From positions 160,001 through 224,000 of the forward strand of contig CAVYSY010000031.1 in NCBI GenBank assembly GCA_963771175.1: a stretch of 64,000 bases of DNA, read 5' to 3'. Source of the DNA: an uncultured delta proteobacterium. GTDB lineage: Bacteria > Myxococcota > Myxococcia > Myxococcales > Myxococcaceae. The position numbers and the translations under genes were made by a program. The stretch's first letter is position 1. Each line of letters opens with the position of its first letter. The notes under the pieces were generated by a model, which did no database searches, was not told where the DNA came from, and was given only the letters and a program-made list of their open reading frames with translations. Below are positions 6,990-13,708 of this stretch, piece after piece.

Positions 6990-9900
6990 ATGCACACTCC
7001 TCATCCACGACTCCCGGCCGTGCTCCGTCGCTCCGCGACGCGGGCGTATGCGCCGGTCCTGCTGCTCTCGCTGGCGGTGTTGGTGACGTCCGGCGCCGCT
7101 CGGGCTCAGACCCCGTCCGCTGAGTGCAACCCCGCGGTCGCCCCCAGCGAAGACGCCGAGCCCTGCGTGCGCTACTGGCGCGACCAGCGCGGCAGCTTCG
7201 CGCTCGTCGGCAACACGCTCGCGCAGGACTGCCGCCAGACGACGCCCAGACCGCTGGTCGGCAACATGCCGCCCATCTGGACGTATGACCCGGCCGCCAC
7301 GGAGCGCGGCTGCTACGCGGGCAACAGCGCCCCGAACTTCTTCTGGACCCTGGATGACTGGACCGCCGAGGGCACCTCGGCCAGGACCAGGCCCACGCTG
7401 CTTCTCGATAACACCAATGACCCCGCCACCGCCTTCGATTCCCTGAAGGCGCGCAGCCAGAGCGTGCTCGTGCTGCCCGCGGGGGCCAGGGTGACGTATG
7501 CGCGCCTGTACTGGGCGGCCAGCCGGCTCAACCCCTTCGCGGGCGACAAGGCGGAGCCCGACCTCACCGTCATCCTCGCCCGACCGGGCGTGGCGGGCTT
7601 CAGCAGGAATCTCCAGGCCCTGCCCAACGACTGGTCCTTCGAGCACACCAGTTCCGAGACCTACCAATACCAGTCCTCGGTGGACGTCACGGACATCGTG
7701 AAGGCGTACGGTCCCGGCGCCTACCAGGTGAGCGACGTCCAGATCTTCCCGCTGGACATCTCCAAGAGCCAGTACACCTTCGCCTCCTGGTGGATGGTGG
7801 TCTTCTACGAGCTGGACGGCGCGGACAAGCGGCACCTGAAGCTGTTCGACAGCATGAAGGTCGTGCGCGGTGCCTCCTCCACCACGGTGGCCCTCAACGG
7901 CTTCTACGTGCCCACCTACGCGGTCGACGCCAAGCTGGGCGTCATCTCCTTCGAGGGAGAGGAGCCGGACCCGGACACCGATGACTCGCTCGAGTTCAAC
8001 GGCGTGACGGTGTCCGACGACATGAACCCGGCCAACAACTTCTTCAACAGCTCGCGGAGCTGGACGAAGCAGAAGACCGGCCCGGGGGCGTACACGACGC
8101 TCGTGGACACCGACACGCCGCTCGGCGGGCTCGATGCCGGAACCGACGGGGTGCTCGACTCGCTGCCCATCAGCAACAATGATGACCGTCCCCAGCTCTC
8201 CGGCACGGCCAGCAGCATGTCGGGGTTGGACCTGGACGTGGTGGACGTCACGGTGGCTCCCGGCCTCAAGTCCGCCCAGGTGACGGCCATCAGCCGCGTT
8301 TCTGGCGGCGACCACTTCTGGATGGGCGGCTTCGTCACCGCCATCACCACCCAGGCCCCGGACTTCACCAACACCATCAAGTCGGTGAAGAACCTCAGCC
8401 GCGCGGACGGCACCATCCGTCCGGGTGACACCATCGAGTACACCATCAGCACCACCAACGAGGGTGACGATCACTCGCGAGACACGGTGCTCACGGACCG
8501 GATTCCCGACGCGCTGGACTACGTCCCCGGGTCCACCCAGGTGCTCACGGTGGTGGCGAGCGACACCGCCACGCCGGGCTTCAAGACGGACGCCTCTGGA
8601 GATGATGTCGCCGACTACGACGTGGCCACCAAGGTCCTCACCATCCGCCTCGGACGGGGCGCCACGGCCACCAAGGGCGGCCGGGTGGGCATGGGCGAGA
8701 GCACCAGCATCTCCTTCCAAGCGAAGGTCAAGACGAGCGCCATCGGCGACGTGGAAAACCAGGGCTTCATCGAGGCCGGCGGCGAGCTGGGCATCGACCC
8801 GGTGAAGACGCCCACCCGCGCCCCGGATGGCACCGGCCCCACGAAGATCTCCGTCGTCATCGTCCCGCCGCCCGTCATCCTCTCGCCGGCGAACGGCTCC
8901 GTCATCACCAACACGTCGCCCACGTACACCGGCACGGCCCAGCCCGGGACGACGATCACCGTGCGGCGCCCGGACGGCACCGTCATCTGCACCGCCACCG
9001 TCGACGCCTCCGGCAACTGGTCCTGCACGGGGACCACGCCGCTGCCCATGGGCACCAACACCATCGAGGTGGTGGCCGAGGACAACGACGGCAACGTGAG
9101 CAAGCCGGCCACCTCCATCTTCACGGTGGACACCACCGACACCGACGGTGACGGCATCCCCGACGGCCTCGAGGACAAGGACCACGACGGCGTCGTGGAC
9201 CCGGGTGAGACCGACCCGACGAAGACGGACTCCGACGGTGACGGCATCCCGGATGGCACCGAGGACAAGGACCACGACGGCGTCGTCGACCCGGGCGAGA
9301 CCGACCCGACCAAGACGGACTCCGACGGCGACGGCCTCCCGGACGGCACCGAGGACAAGGACCACGACGGCGTCGTCGACCCGGGCGAGACCGACCCGAC
9401 GCAATCCGCGACACCGACGGCGACGGCATGTCCGACGGCACCGAGGACAAGGACCACGACGGCGTCGTCGACCCGGGCGAGACCGACCCGACTAAGACGG
9501 ACTCCCGACGGCGACGAGCACCCCCGCGACACCGAGGCAACGGCATCCCCGACGCCGTCGAGACGGCCACGGGCACCGACCCGACCAAGGCGGACACCGA
9601 CGGCGACGGCATCCCCGATGGCATCGAGGACAAGGACCACGACGGCGTCGTCGACCCGGGCGAGACCGACCCGACGCAAGACGGACTCCGACGGCGACGG
9701 CATCCCCGATGGCACCGAGGACAAGGACCACGACGGCGTCGTGGACACGGGCGAGACCGACCCGACCAAGACGGACACCGATGGCGATGGCCTCTCGGAT
9801 GGTGCCGAGGACAAGGACCACGACGGTGTCGTGGACACGGGCGAGACCGACCCGACGAATCCCGACACCGACAACGACGGCATCTCCGACGGCGTCGAGT

Positions 9901-12601
9901 CGACCACGGGGACCAACCCGCTCGACGATGACTCCGACGATGACGGCCTGCTCGATGGCACCGAGGACAAGAACCACAACGGCTCCGTGGACTCGGGCGA
10001 GACCGACCCGCGCAAGGCCGACACCGACGGTGATGGCCTCCAGGATGGCACCGAGTCGGGCCTCAGCACGCCCGAGGGCTCGGGCACGGACCTGACCGTC
10101 TTCCAGCCCGATGCGAACCCGAGCACCCGGACGGACCCGACCAATCCCGACACCGACGGCGGCAGCGTGTCCGACGGCGCCGAGGACAAGGACCACAACG
10201 GCCGCATCGACGCGGGCGAGACCGACCCGCTCAACAAGGCGGACGACAAGCCCGTGGACAGCAAGGACACGGACGGCGACGGCGTGCCCGACGCCACCGA
10301 GGCGGAGCTCGGCCTCGACCCGAACGACTCGGACAGCGATGACGACGGCGTGCCCGACGGACTGGACGGCCTCACCGACACGGATGGGGACGGCCGCATC
10401 GACGCGCTCGACGCCGACAGCGACAACGACGGCATCAAGGACGGCACCGAGCTGGGTGTGACGCGGGCCAACGCTCCCGCGGGCACCAACCTGGACTCGC
10501 CGAACTTCGTCCCGGATGACGACCCGTCCACCACCACCAACCCGAAGAACGCCGACACCGACGGTGGACGGTCCTCAAGGATGGTGAGGAGGACAAGAAC
10601 CACGACGGCCGCTTCGCCTCGGGCGAGACCGACCCGAAGGACCCGGACACCGACCACGGTGGCCTGTCCGACGGTGACGAGGTGAAGAGCAACACCAACC
10701 CGCTCGACGACCAGGACGACTTCCTCGTCGTTGGCCGTGGTTGCAGCACCTCGGGTGGCTCTCCGCTTGGGTGGCTGGCCGCGCTGATGCTCGCCGCGCC
10801 GATGCTGCGCTCGCGGCGCTCCGCTCGCCGGGGCTCCGTGCTGGCCGGTGGGTTGATGGGTCTCCTGGGTGTGCTGGCCGCTCCGGCGGCGGACGCCCAG
10901 GCCCCGGCCTCCTCCCCGCTGTCCCAGTCCATCGACGTGCAGCGCTACAAGCCCGGCCCGGGTGCCACCGACATCCTCGGCGTGAATGGCGCCAGGGTGG
11001 GTGGGCACCTCGGCTGGCACCTGGGGGCCTCGCTCAACTACGCGAGCAACCCCCTGGGCTTCCTCGACCCGCGCCAGGACGACTTCGTCTACGGAATCGT
11101 CGCCCACCAGGTGACGTTGGACCTGATGGGCTCGCTCTCGCTGTGGAACCGGTTCGAGCTGGGCGTGGCGCTGCCCGTCACGTACCAGGCCTCCGAGAGC
11201 GGCGCCTCCGTCATGCCGGCCTTCTCGGATGGCGTGAGCGGCGCTGGCGTGGGTGACCTGCGGCTGGTGCCCAAGGCCCACCTGCTCAACGCGGGTGGGT
11301 TCGACCTGGGCCTCTCCGTCCCCGTCCTGCTGCCCACCGCGGGCGGCCAGGGCTTCCGGGGCGGCTCGGGTGTCAGCGCCCGGCCCCAGCTCGTGGGCGA
11401 GTGGGGCAACGGCAACGGCCTGCGGCTGGTGGCCAACCTCGGCGCCAACCTCCAGGGCGAGCAGCAGGTGCGCAACCTGAAGACGGGCACCGAGCTGCTG
11501 TACGCGGTGGGTGCCCAGGTGCCCCTCAGCGAGAAGCTCGCGCTGCAGGCCAACGTCGCGGGCGCGTTCGGGCTGAACGACATGGACATGGAGGGGCGCC
11601 CGCTGGAGGTGCTCGCGGCGGTGCAGTACCGCCTCTCCAAGGGACTGGCCGCCCACGTGGGCGGTGGCCCGGGCCTCACCCGCGGCTACGGCACCCCGGG
11701 CTTCCGCGTCTTCGCCGGCCTCGACTGGACCCAGCCCGGTGAGCGCGTCGCCGCGCCTCCTCCGGCCCCCGTCGACACGGACGGGGATGGCCTCGTCGTG
11801 GATGGCCTCGCCGTGGATGGCCAGGACAAGTGCCCCACCGAGGCCGAGGACAAGGACGGCTTCCAGGACGAGGACGGCTGCCCCGACCCCGACAACGACG
11901 GGGACGGCATCGCCGACGCACAGGACAGGTGCGCCCTCCAGCCCGAGACGGTGAACGGCTTCGAGGACGAGGATGGCTGCCCGGACGAGAAGCCGGCCGT
12001 GGACTCGGACAAGGACGGCCTGATGGATGACCAGGACAAGTGCCCGGCCCAGCCCGAGGACAAGGACGGCTTCCAGGACGAGGACGGCTGCCCGGATCCG
12101 GACAACGACAAGGACGGCGTGCCGGACTGGGAGGACCAGTGCCCGATGCAGCCCGAGGTCATCAACGGCGTGAAGGACGAGGACGGCTGCCCCGACGAGG
12201 GCAAGTCCAAGGTGCGCCTGGAGTCCAAGCGCATCGTCATCCTGGACAAGGTGTACTTCGCCACGGCGAAGGACGTCATCCTTCCCAAGTCCTTCGACCT
12301 GCTCAAGCAGGTGGGCTCGGTGCTGAAGGCCAACCCGCAGCTCGAGCTGCTGCGCGTGGAGGGCCACACGGACAACCAGGGCAACGACGCCAGCAACCTG
12401 AACCTGTCGCAGCGGCGCGCGAACAAAGTGCGCGCGTTCCTCATCCGTGAGGGCGTCGCTGCGGAACGGCTCGAGGCGGTGGGCTACGGGGAGACGAAGC
12501 CCGTGGATACCAACAAGACGGCGGCTGGCCGTGAGAACAACCGCCGCGTGGAGTTCAACATCCTGAAGGTCGCCGGCGAGGAGGCCGAGAAAGCCCCGTA
12601 A
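6990..12601 (+). CDS. Large surface protein: signal peptide, N-terminal adhesin-like domain, DUF11, Ig-like domain, Ca-binding repeats, internal MYXO-CTERM-like anchor, second signal peptide, beta-barrel, TSP3 repeats, OmpA domain (frameshifts near 9400-9540, 9675, 10570)
   Basis: DUF11 motif PGDTIEYTISTTNEG...VLTDRIP; Ig motif PTYTGTAQPGTTITV...DASGNWSC; DxDGDG repeats continue in the frame of ORF 10682..12601 without a stop into GCSTSGG-TM-RSRR and then to the OmpA motifs VEGHTDNQG...NLNLSQRRA...GYGETKP...NRRVEF. Confidence 0.75.
9137..9870 (+). repeat. Intragenic tandem array of ~90-bp (30 aa) units DSDGDGIPDGTEDKDHDGVVDPGETDPTKT, about 8 units, one shortened
   Basis: Near-identical units with a 90-bp period (e.g. 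gaggacaaggaccacgacggcgtcgt at 9171, 9261, 9351). Confidence 0.9.
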
Positions 12602-12688: not shown

Positions 12689-13708
12689 GTGAGCTCCCTT
12701 CTTCCTCGCCCCCTCCTGATTCCCCTGCTCATCCCGCTGCTGCTGGCGGCGGCGCCTCCCACCGCGCCTGCCCCGCCCCGCCTGGAGGATGCGCTCCCCG
12801 ACACCTTCTCCGGAGTGGAGCGCGTGGTGGCGGTGGGCGACGTGCACGGGGACGTGGACGCGCTGAAGGAGGTGCTGCGACTGGCGGGCCTCATCGACGA
12901 GAAGGGCCGGTGGAGCGGCGGCAAGGCGCACCTGGTGCAGACGGGAGACATCCCGGACCGGGGCGAGCACACCCGCGCCGCCTTCGAGTTGCTGATGCGA
13001 CTGGAGGGCGAGGCACTCGCCGCGGGCGGCCGGGTCCACGCGCTGCTGGGCAACCACGAGGTGATGAACATGCTCGGGGACGTGCGCTACGTCACTCCGG
13101 GCGAGCTGGCCTCGTTCGCGGACCAGAGCCCCGAGCCGGATACGTCGGGCTCGCCGCGAGGGCTCAACGGGCACCGTGAAGCGTACGGGCTGAAGGGGCG
13201 CTACGGCCAGTGGATGCGCCGGCACGCCGCGGTGGTGCGCATCGATGACACGCTCTTCGTGCACGGCGGAGTCGCGCCGATGGTGCCAGCGAAGACACTG
13301 GCCGAGCTCAACCGCTGGGTGCGGCAGGACCTGTTCCCCGGCAACCCTCCTGGTGGAGCCAGGGACGCGCAGGGCCCGTTGTGGTTCCGCGGCTACGCGC
13401 TGGGAGCCGAGGAGGCCGCGGGACAATCCCTCGACGTGGTGCTGCAGCGGTTCGGCGCGAAGCGGATGGTGATGGGTCACACCACCGACCGGGATGGGAA
13501 GGTCCGGACGCGGTTCGGCGGGAAGGCTGTGTTCATCGACACCGGCCTGAGCACCGGTTACGGCCGACACCTCGCCGCGCTGGAGCTTCGTGGCGGCAGG
13601 GTCACCGCTCTCTACAAGGAGGGACGCGTGGAGCTGGTGGCGCCCCCGGCGGCTCCGGTTCCGAGCGCCACGCAGAGGGTCTCCCCCGCCCCGCGCGTCA
13701 ACCCCTGA
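12689..13708 (+). CDS. Exported metallophosphoesterase (PPP/Shewanella-like phosphatase)
   Basis: GDVHG, GDIPDRG, GNHE, FVHGG, GPLWFRGY, GHT and IDTG motifs; hydrophobic N-terminal signal. Confidence 0.85.
   Translation: MSSLLPRPLLIPLLIPLLLAAAPPTAPAPPRLEDALPDTFSGVERVVAVGDVHGDVDALKEVLRLAGLIDEKGRWSGGKAHLVQTGDIPDRGEHTRAAFELLMRLEGEALAAGGRVHALLGNHEVMNMLGDVRYVTPGELASFADQSPEPDTSGSPRGLNGHREAYGLKGRYGQWMRRHAAVVRIDDTLFVHGGVAPMVPAKTLAELNRWVRQDLFPGNPPGGARDAQGPLWFRGYALGAEEAAGQSLDVVLQRFGAKRMVMGHTTDRDGKVRTRFGGKAVFIDTGLSTGYGRHLAALELRGGRVTALYKEGRVELVAPPAAPVPSATQRVSPAPRVNP

What the first reader, a model, noticed from the sequence alone, without database searches (positions are those of the whole stretch)
6990..12601. 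Candidate polyprotein: MYXO-CTERM adhesin and TraB-like barrel/OmpA protein in one reading frame, linked by an internal second signal peptide
Seen: the Ca-binding repeat stalk reads without a stop (frame clean from ~10577 to 12601) into GRG-C(10742)-STSGGSP-LGWLAALMLAAPML-RSRRSARR, which has the Cys + TM helix + Arg tail layout of a MYXO-CTERM tag. It then continues into GSVLAGGLMGLLGVLAAPAADA|Q(10898), a Sec/SPase I-type signal, followed by a beta-barrel, TSP3 repeats and an OmpA domain. Established: MYXO-CTERM is normally C-terminal. The kin-recognition/outer-membrane-exchange pair TraA (MYXO-CTERM adhesin) and TraB (barrel + TSP3 + OmpA) is encoded by two genes. Inference: one translation product crosses the inner membrane as a hairpin and is cut by the MYXO-CTERM protease and SPase I, giving a 1:1 adhesin and barrel partner, i.e. 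a fused TraAB-like contact system with a different recognition domain. Alternatively ATG 10802 (MLRSRRSARRGSVL...) is an internal start, though it has no clear RBS. The gene lies ~1.3 kb from a lipoprotein toxin cassette.
Basis: partly seen in the sequence, partly recalled or inferred. Interest (0 to 1): 0.8.

Follow-up and report, generated by a model that had tools for sequence, protein, structure and literature searches.

The report
Adhesin fused to its docking barrel
One gene of a soil myxobacterium encodes a surface adhesin-like protein and an outer-membrane barrel in a single chain that is likely cut twice into two partners, with the adhesin's tail predicted to dock on the barrel; the layout is conserved across relatives and was already noted in print for a related gene, but the cutting is untested.

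Summary
The junction is real. Cys10742, a membrane helix, an Arg cluster and a second AxA|Q signal lie in one open frame (10520-12598). The window's gene is broken at 10567-10572 by 2 extra bases that contigs of 4 of 4 other runs lack; 13 same-genus orthologues are single 1,810-2,556 aa frames. The layout is in print for M. xanthus MXAN_5598 (PMC11980579), and this scan had found it in 7 other genomes. The window gene is a paralogue of MXAN_5598, not TraAB (barrel 28% to TraB).

Added here: (1) of 79 related loci, 58 are fused and 17 barrels stand alone; one locus occurs fused, split into two genes, or with the adhesin deleted. (2) Fused tags carry a hydrophobic strand before the Cys (55 of 58, against 2 of 22 terminal tags), which a complex model docks on the barrel's loops (0.71, controls 0.00). 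(3) The head is swapped between close relatives.

The toxin cassette is adjacent in 0 of 13 relatives. Verdict: a new member of a known kind, likely a twice-cut polyprotein anchoring an adhesin to the cell wall. Kin recognition or membrane exchange is unsupported.

The parts
6990..7106 (+). Start codon and N-terminal Sec-type signal peptide ending in AxA (cleavage inferred)
   Evidence: Sequence; orthologues carry an equivalent signal
7107..8375 (+). Head domain, about 420 aa, all-beta model with two sandwich modules; ligand unknown; varies between relatives
   Evidence: Model pLDDT 68, pTM 0.79; best Z 5.9, not decisive; Atlas lead to DUF3344-like cell-surface proteins; identity 37-96% among 14 orthologues
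8409..8729 (+). DUF11 / TIGR01451 repeat
   Evidence: TIGR01451 41.4 bits vs cut-off 24; PF01345 23.1 vs 24.6
8898..9134 (+). Bacterial Ig-like domain
   Evidence: PF17936 50.6 bits, PF19077 44.7 bits
9129..10717 (+). Stalk of acidic TSP3-like repeats (calcium binding inferred from family); off-frame near 9420-9650 in this assembly
   Evidence: PF18884; codon-position GC plot; 11-37 D-x-D-x-D-G repeats in 13 orthologues
10567..10572 (+). Two extra bases that break the frame between stalk and tag; most likely an assembly error
   Evidence: Absent from contigs of 4 of 4 laid runs; orthologues are unbroken
10718..10744 (+). Hydrophobic strand before the invariant Cys (10742-10744); predicted to dock on the barrel loops
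   Evidence: Motif in 55 of 58 fused loci vs 2 of 22 terminal tags; 12 of 15 distant fusions; interface residues
10742..10831 (+). Internal MYXO-CTERM tag: Cys, linker, helix 10766-10807, Arg cluster 10808-10831
   Evidence: TIGR03901 19.3 (cut-off 20), TIGR03382 16.0 (cut-off 15.85)
10808..10897 (+). Second, internal Sec-type signal: the Arg cluster doubles as n-region, then h-region and AxA; predicted cut before Gln 10898
   Evidence: h-region in 104 and AxA[Q/E] in 100 of 105 homologues; the same segment begins stand-alone barrels in deletion derivatives
10898..11734 (+). Outer-membrane beta-barrel, TraB-like fold class (12 strands counted by eye from the sequence)
   Evidence: PF13557; pLDDT 88-89 in the complex model; 57% to the ftsZ-linked M. 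xanthus gene, 28% to TraB
11774..12205 (+). Periplasmic TSP3 repeats
   Evidence: PF02412 17.5 bits, below cut-off 25; sequence
12254..12544 (+). OmpA-like peptidoglycan-binding domain; stop codon at 12599-12601
   Evidence: PF00691 79.3 bits
5915..6721 (-). Divergent TPR gene; conserved context, no functional link shown
   Evidence: Present in 12 of 13 same-genus loci, the 13th contig starts at the gene
12689..13708 (+). Downstream metallophosphoesterase gene; conserved context, no functional link shown
   Evidence: PF00149; present in 13 of 13 same-genus loci

Best explanation
The gene encodes an adhesin-like protein, an internal cysteine sorting tag, a second export signal and a barrel-OmpA protein in one chain, which is likely cut twice in the inner membrane into a surface adhesin and a wall-anchored barrel predicted to bind the adhesin's tail. 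Steps: (1) shown - the domain order and the conserved in-frame junction. (2) Inferred - the N-terminal signal exports the adhesin, the tag helix stops transfer, the Arg cluster stays cytoplasmic, and the second hydrophobic segment restarts export. (3) Inferred - signal peptidase I cuts at AxA|Q and frees the barrel for outer-membrane insertion, with OmpA gripping peptidoglycan. (4) Inferred from the MYXO-CTERM pathway (PMC11980579) - myxosortase cuts at the probably lipidated Cys, and the type II secretion system moves the adhesin to the surface. (5) Predicted - the hydrophobic strand before the Cys pairs with the barrel's first loop and a conserved GYGTP loop, tethering the stalk to the wall through the barrel, 1:1 at synthesis. 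The role is likely attachment through an exchangeable head; the ligand is unknown.
For: Junction in frame in 15 of the 16 same-genus genomes holding the orthologue; the 16th contig starts in the barrel. 58 of 79 loci found by barrel-only patterns are fused. 15 of 20 distant long-frame hits have the junction. In 105 of 105 homologues a Cys precedes the barrel, with a helix in 97, a second h-region in 104 and AxA[Q/E] in 100 (the junction was in the query). One locus occurs fused (L121, L131), split into a tag-terminated adhesin plus a barrel with its own signal (L128, L137, L145), or adhesin-less (L139, L142, L143, L148), so the halves can be separate products. In L134 and L136 the stand-alone barrel begins with a segment like the fused internal signal. 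A myxosortase core is in the genome, 138.7 bits vs cut-off 100. Complex model: 0.71, best of 3 controls 0.00; the mark was reached by 116 of 157 solved complexes and 2 of 215 mismatched pairs (only roughly applicable, my own alignments); runs agree in at least 79% of contacts; partner pLDDT at least 43. The docking motif is enriched in fused tags and kept in split adhesins L128 and L137.
Against: No cleavage, localisation or binding was measured. No SignalP was available, so the second signal rests on hydrophobicity and AxA heuristics. The window's own tag is just under the TIGR03901 cut-off, and only 7 of 17 tested segments reach it. The partner's fold in the complex is uncertain (pLDDT 44-45) and the confident interface is only 9 residues. 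The motif was defined on the fused set, whose members are kin. Adhesin-less barrels keep the first loop motif in 16 of 17 stand-alone copies, so the loop is not specific to having a neighbouring partner. TraA, which works with TraB, lacks this strand before its Cys. Met stands just before the Arg cluster in most of the window's own clade.
Confidence: 0.7

Rival explanations
1. The barrel-OmpA half is mostly made from an internal start codon just before the Arg cluster, so the gene acts as two nested genes and the long product is only an adhesin with a tail that is trimmed off.
For: ATG 10787 and 10802 in the window. An ATG lies within 8 codons of the Arg cluster in 19 of 58 fused loci, mostly the Archangium clade, and some start-type codon in 43 of 58. 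traA and traB overlap at stop and start in L068. Lack of a Shine-Dalgarno site is a weak test: only 5 of 17 stand-alone barrels have one by a laxer window.
Against: 15 of 58 fused loci have no ATG, GTG or TTG there, including the M. xanthus-clade ftsZ-linked genes. Met is near the Arg cluster in only 40 of 105 proteins. The genome's second fusion on C52 has no Met. 0 of 58 have start plus SD, and the position of the candidate codon is not fixed.
Confidence: 0.1
2. Only signal peptidase I cuts. The barrel is released, but the internal tag is not a myxosortase substrate, so the adhesin stays in the inner membrane or leaves by another route.
For: The tag scores 18.7-19.3 bits, under the TIGR03901 cut-off. 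Without myxosortase a fraction of tagged proteins still reaches the surface (PMC11980579 Discussion).
Against: The Cys and the Gly before it are invariant in 43 aligned tails. The tag passes TIGR03382. The paralogous tag on C52 passes TIGR03901 at 23.4. A near-identical tag ends the split adhesins.
Confidence: 0.09
3. It is a functional second TraAB: the head binds like heads on kin cells and the barrel-OmpA drives outer-membrane exchange, possibly delivering the nearby lipoprotein toxin.
For: Same module order as TraA+TraB, whose 1:1 ratio is reported in PMC12045341. The head is more variable than barrel or neighbours (mean 71% vs 84-92%), and G006 vs G014 share 96% in the barrel but 46% in the head. 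No traA was found in this 82%-complete genome.
Against: TraB model 286 bits vs cut-off 700; barrel 28% to TraB. The stalk is acidic repeats, not Cys-rich repeats. Relatives G001, G004 and G006 carry both this gene and a true traB. The toxin cassette is adjacent in 0 of 13 relatives. [quoted passage not shown] Most heads stay 80-96% alike between species.
Confidence: 0.07
4. The fusion is an artefact of this indel-rich assembly, or a recent stop-codon loss without function.
For: The assembly has frame errors in this and neighbouring genes.
Against: Independent contigs span the junction without a gap. The junction is kept across several families of the phylum. The tree nests all 17 stand-alone barrels among fused ones.
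Confidence: 0.02

Closest known systems
MXAN_5598 of Myxococcus xanthus (internal MYXO-CTERM protein; PMC11980579 Discussion). The ftsA/ftsZ-flanked gene is named AgmC in NCBI records; equating the two is my inference from synteny.
   Same: Adhesin, internal MYXO-CTERM, barrel and OmpA in one frame; the same Cys-helix-Arg-h-AxA|Q junction; barrel 57% identical.
   Different: Different locus (TPR / metallophosphoesterase / hemW, not ftsA-ftsZ) and a separate clade. Both genes coexist in Archangium violaceum Cb vi76 (L082, L098). The head differs: AgmC_N NF047640 scores 386 in the M. xanthus proteins and gives no hit in the window protein. The passage read does not mention a second signal peptide or a docking strand.
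TraA/TraB outer-membrane-exchange pair
   Same: A MYXO-CTERM surface protein plus barrel, TSP3 repeats and OmpA; a variable N-terminal head; tail-on-barrel contact was also predicted for TraAB (PMC12045341 passages).
   Different: Two overlapping genes rather than one. TraA has a PA14-like variable domain and Cys-rich repeats (PMC6372800 passages). The barrel is 28% identical and far below the TraB cut-off. TraA lacks the hydrophobic pre-Cys strand.
SgmI (MXAN_2561) and its downstream barrel MXAN_2562 (bioRxiv 10.64898/2026.08.28.747804, passage)
   Same: A tagged surface protein co-transcribed with an outer-membrane barrel, with similar mutant fitness profiles tied to attachment.
   Different: Two genes, fibronectin type III domains; not compared by sequence here.

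Membership tests
MYXO-CTERM sorting signal | Invariant Cys motif, membrane helix, basic cluster | tested here: met
   Sequence; Cys invariant in 43 rows
MYXO-CTERM sorting signal | Curated HMM cut-off | tested here: inconclusive
   TIGR03901 19.3 vs 20; TIGR03382 16.0 vs 15.85; 7 of 17 segments reach the TIGR03901 cut-off
MYXO-CTERM sorting signal | C-terminal position | tested here: not met
   About 590 residues follow the Arg cluster; PMC11980579 accepts rare internal copies
MYXO-CTERM sorting signal | Myxosortase in the genome | tested here: met
   NF040914 138.7 bits vs 100
MYXO-CTERM sorting signal | Cleavage by myxosortase and surface display | not testable with these tools
   Needs experiment
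MXAN_5598-type internal-tag fusion | Adhesin, internal tag, barrel and OmpA in one ORF | tested here: met
   13 same-genus orthologues are single 1,810-2,556 aa frames; the window break is absent from other contigs
MXAN_5598 / AgmC orthologues | Position between ftsA and ftsZ | tested here: not met
   ftsZ and ftsA lie on contig C32, the gene on C31; no barrel match between them
MXAN_5598 / AgmC orthologues | AgmC N-terminal domain NF047640 | tested here: not met
   Not among the 4 families hit at E<=0.1 by the window's N-half; 386 bits in P0062 and P0067
TraB | NF033763 cut-off 700 | tested here: not met
   285.9 bits; true TraB in relatives scores 964-981
TraB | Signal, barrel, TSP3 repeats, OmpA order | tested here: met
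TraA | PA14-like variable domain followed by Cys-rich repeats | tested here: not met
   Stalk is DUF11, Ig and acidic repeats; the C-terminal 492 aa of a relative's TraA finds nothing in this genome
TraAB | Allele-specific adhesion and outer-membrane exchange | not testable with these tools
   Needs experiment
Sec / signal peptidase I signal (internal) | Basic n-region, hydrophobic h-region, AxA site | tested here: met
   Heuristic only: h-region in 104 and AxA[Q/E] in 100 of 105; no SignalP run

The most novel reading that the evidence does not exclude
These genes are a phylum-wide class of self-assembling bacterial envelope polyproteins. Two proteases free an adhesin and its own barrel, the barrel clamps the adhesin's terminal strand and couples it to the wall, and swappable heads give allele-specific cell-cell recognition independent of TraA - a second recognition system, here in a genome where no traA was found.
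Probability: 0.12. Interest if true: 0.85.

Novelty: new member of a known kind. Interest (0 to 1): 0.42.

Why it matters
If the double cut is confirmed, this is a bacterial polyprotein matured by two different membrane proteases, fixing a 1:1 supply of adhesin and anchor. The predicted docking strand gives a residue-level, testable answer to what TraB-like barrels do for MYXO-CTERM proteins, which bears on the still unsolved TraA-TraB interaction. The natural fused, split and deleted versions of one locus are ready-made controls. The basic layout is already published for one paralogue, and this scan has seen it repeatedly, which limits the surprise.

Tried and rejected
Single-sequence fold of the N-half failed (pLDDT 31). 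The head has no PDB sequence match at E<=1. Fold searches gave only weak beta-sandwich or jelly-roll matches (Foldseek TM at most 0.26; best Z 5.9), so no ligand can be named. The barrel profile gave only non-significant PDB hits, E 0.14-0.9, FapF among them. pN/pS on the junction parts was uninformative: segments are 6-16 codons with saturated GC3. The MPP and HemW columns were translated off-frame and are discarded; one search has the corrected values. The SD test is weak (control 5 of 17). My GYGTP loop pattern matched none of the 17 stand-alone barrels and was not debugged, so that loop was not assessed there. The careful tree did not finish; one search is the quick tree with a long-branch outgroup warning and no clade test. 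Toxin link rejected (0 of 13); the lipoprotein has no NCBIfam or Pfam family. Literature searches for agmC and for internal-signal polyproteins in bacteria found nothing relevant. Search of earlier findings by sequence was blank.
Full report
OBSERVATION. The window comes from an indel-rich, 82%-complete genome whose closest named relatives at this gene are Archangium species. The ORF from ATG 6990 ends at 10685, and the junction lies in another frame that is open from 10520 to 12598. Codon-position GC shows an off-frame stretch near 9420-9650 and a switch near 10570. Contigs of 4 of 4 laid runs lack one base at 10567 and one at 10572, and three contigs cross 10744-10900 with no other gap. The break is therefore most likely an assembly error, and the junction is not. 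The tag scores 19.3 on TIGR03901 (cut-off 20) and 16.0 on TIGR03382 (cut-off 15.85). The N-half holds DUF11, Ig and TSP3-like repeats; the C-half holds a PF13557-type barrel, TSP3 repeats and OmpA.

CONSERVATION. 16 of 17 same-genus genomes hold an orthologue at 81-93% identity. The junction is in frame in 15; the 16th contig starts inside the barrel. The 13 fetched with flanks are single frames of 1,810-2,556 aa. A protein search with junction plus barrel returned 105 proteins: all have the Cys, 97 a helix, 104 a second hydrophobic region, 100 an AxA[Q/E] site and 40 a Met near the Arg cluster (biased, as the junction was in the query). A scan whose two patterns both lie in the barrel gave 79 named loci: 58 fused, 17 stand-alone, 4 cut by contig ends. 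Across the phylum, 121 of 151 genomes have a barrel match. Of 20 hits that I chose for long open frames, 15 carry the junction and 5 are ordinary stand-alone barrels. The genome itself has a second fusion on C52 with a Cys-rich stalk and no Met, and a myxosortase.

PRIOR ART. PMC11980579 (passages, first part of the Discussion, supplement search) states that MXAN_5598 has an internal MYXO-CTERM between an adhesin region and a barrel plus OmpA. It likens this to TraA plus TraB, proposes that the N-part is processed and surface-anchored, and places the gene beside ftsA and ftsZ. The body of its Table S1 was not readable as text and may mark a second signal peptide. In my loci, 32 of 79 have ftsZ in the flank, and their junction matches proteins that NCBI names AgmC. 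Equating these with MXAN_5598 is my inference from synteny; strain DK1622 was not examined. The window gene is a paralogue: other neighbours, another clade, no AgmC_N domain, and both genes occur in A. violaceum Cb vi76 (L082, L098). Searches found no paper on the second signal, the docking strand or the split states; subscription papers such as Sah 2020 were not searched. The scan's own index lists the same layout in 7 other genomes (unchecked notes).

NATURAL EXPERIMENTS. One locus in Myxococcus and Corallococcus, recognised by matching flanking ORFs, occurs in three states (the output was partly cut). It is fused in L121 and L131. It is split in L128, L137 and L145, where the adhesin ends at its tag and a barrel with its own signal starts about 120 bases later. 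It lacks the adhesin in L139, L142, L143 and L148. In L134 and L136 the lone barrel begins with a segment resembling the fused internal signal. In a quick tree of 74 rows (4 cut loci and 4 short ones left out; TraB as a long-branch outgroup; no clade test), all 17 stand-alone barrels fall in one 19-row clade nested among fused genes. Fusion therefore looks ancestral in this subfamily, with modest confidence.

INTERNAL START. 15 of 58 fused loci have no ATG, GTG or TTG in the 8 codons before the Arg cluster, 19 have an ATG, and none has start plus Shine-Dalgarno. The SD test is weak, since only 5 of 17 stand-alone barrels pass a laxer version. An internal start cannot be the family's general mechanism, but it remains possible in the window's clade, where Met is common there.

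DOCKING MODEL. The barrel (278 aa) was folded with the last 56 residues of the adhesin, each as a 43-row alignment. The score was 0.71 against a best control of 0.00. The mark was reached by 116 of 157 solved complexes and 2 of 215 mismatched pairs, counts that hold only roughly here. Runs agree in at least 79% of contacts and partner pLDDT is at least 43. The confident contacts involve only the 9 residues up to the Cys, in antiparallel register with the barrel's first loop and beside the GYGTP loop. By strand counting (my inference) these loops face outward, which a chain still held in the inner membrane could not reach. A hydrophobic-x-hydrophobic-x-Gly motif precedes the Cys in 55 of 58 fused loci and in 2 of 22 terminal tags of the genome. 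It also occurs in 12 of 15 distant fusions and in the split adhesins L128 and L137. Against: the motif was defined on kin, TraA lacks it, and 16 of 17 stand-alone barrels keep the first loop whether or not an adhesin gene is beside them.

HEAD. The model (pLDDT 68, pTM 0.79) is all-beta, with only weak matches to jelly-roll and carbohydrate-binding-like folds and an Atlas lead to DUF3344-like surface proteins. Mean identity among 14 orthologues is 71% for the head, 86% for the barrel and 84-92% for three neighbours. G006 and G014 share 96% in the barrel and 46% in the head, which points to replacement of the N-half. Stalk repeats number 11-37. This fits adhesin variation; it does not show kin recognition.

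NOT TraAB, NOT TOXIN-LINKED. The TraB model scores 286 against a cut-off of 700, and identity to a true TraB barrel is 28%. Relatives carry true traB elsewhere. TraA is defined by a PA14-like domain and Cys-rich repeats (PMC6372800 passages). TraA and TraB form 1:1 complexes and screens suggest they alone are required for exchange (PMC12045341 passages). The toxin lipoprotein and the kinase/DUF2381 genes are adjacent in 0 of 13 relatives, while TPR (12), metallophosphoesterase (13) and hemW (13) are conserved.

VERDICT. A real, conserved gene; a new member of the MXAN_5598 kind. It is likely a twice-cut polyprotein that supplies an adhesin and its wall-anchored barrel (confidence 0.70). Cleavage, binding and function are untested. 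Interest 0.42.

Noticed in passing
G000:C52:91441-93128 (L023): Second internal-tag fusion in the same genome: Cys-rich stalk, tag passing TIGR03901 (23.4 bits), second signal without Met, barrel and OmpA. Its Cys-rich stalk is more TraA-like than the window gene's.
   Followed up: partly
G000:C30:256991-257950: Internal tag (18.8 bits) followed in frame by a signal-like segment, a TPR-like stretch and a short barrel-like C-terminus (labels by eye); not checked in relatives.
   Followed up: no
G000:C34:9980-8800 (minus strand): Tag (29.7 bits) followed in frame by a lipoprotein-type signal and a soluble-looking domain; either a different kind of fusion or an indel artefact.
   Followed up: no
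G000:C11:10880-12401 (L071, L074): The genome's best TraB-like gene (frameshifted, 316 + 365 bits) follows an ABC-transporter-like gene, not traA; a relative's TraA C-terminal 492 aa finds no match in this 82%-complete genome.
   Followed up: partly
G000:C32:106571-124190: ftsA and ftsZ are 17.6 kb apart with no barrel match between them, where 32 related loci carry the MXAN_5598/AgmC-type fusion; the interval seems to hold other insertions.
   Followed up: partly
   Followed up: partly
L083:5641-6798 (minus strand): A second copy of the head domain (57% identity) lies downstream of the metallophosphoesterase in one Archangium MAG.
   Followed up: no
L197, L198, L199, L201, L202: Fusions in other families have Cys-rich repeats directly before the internal tag, closer to a fused TraA-TraB than the window gene.
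   Followed up: no
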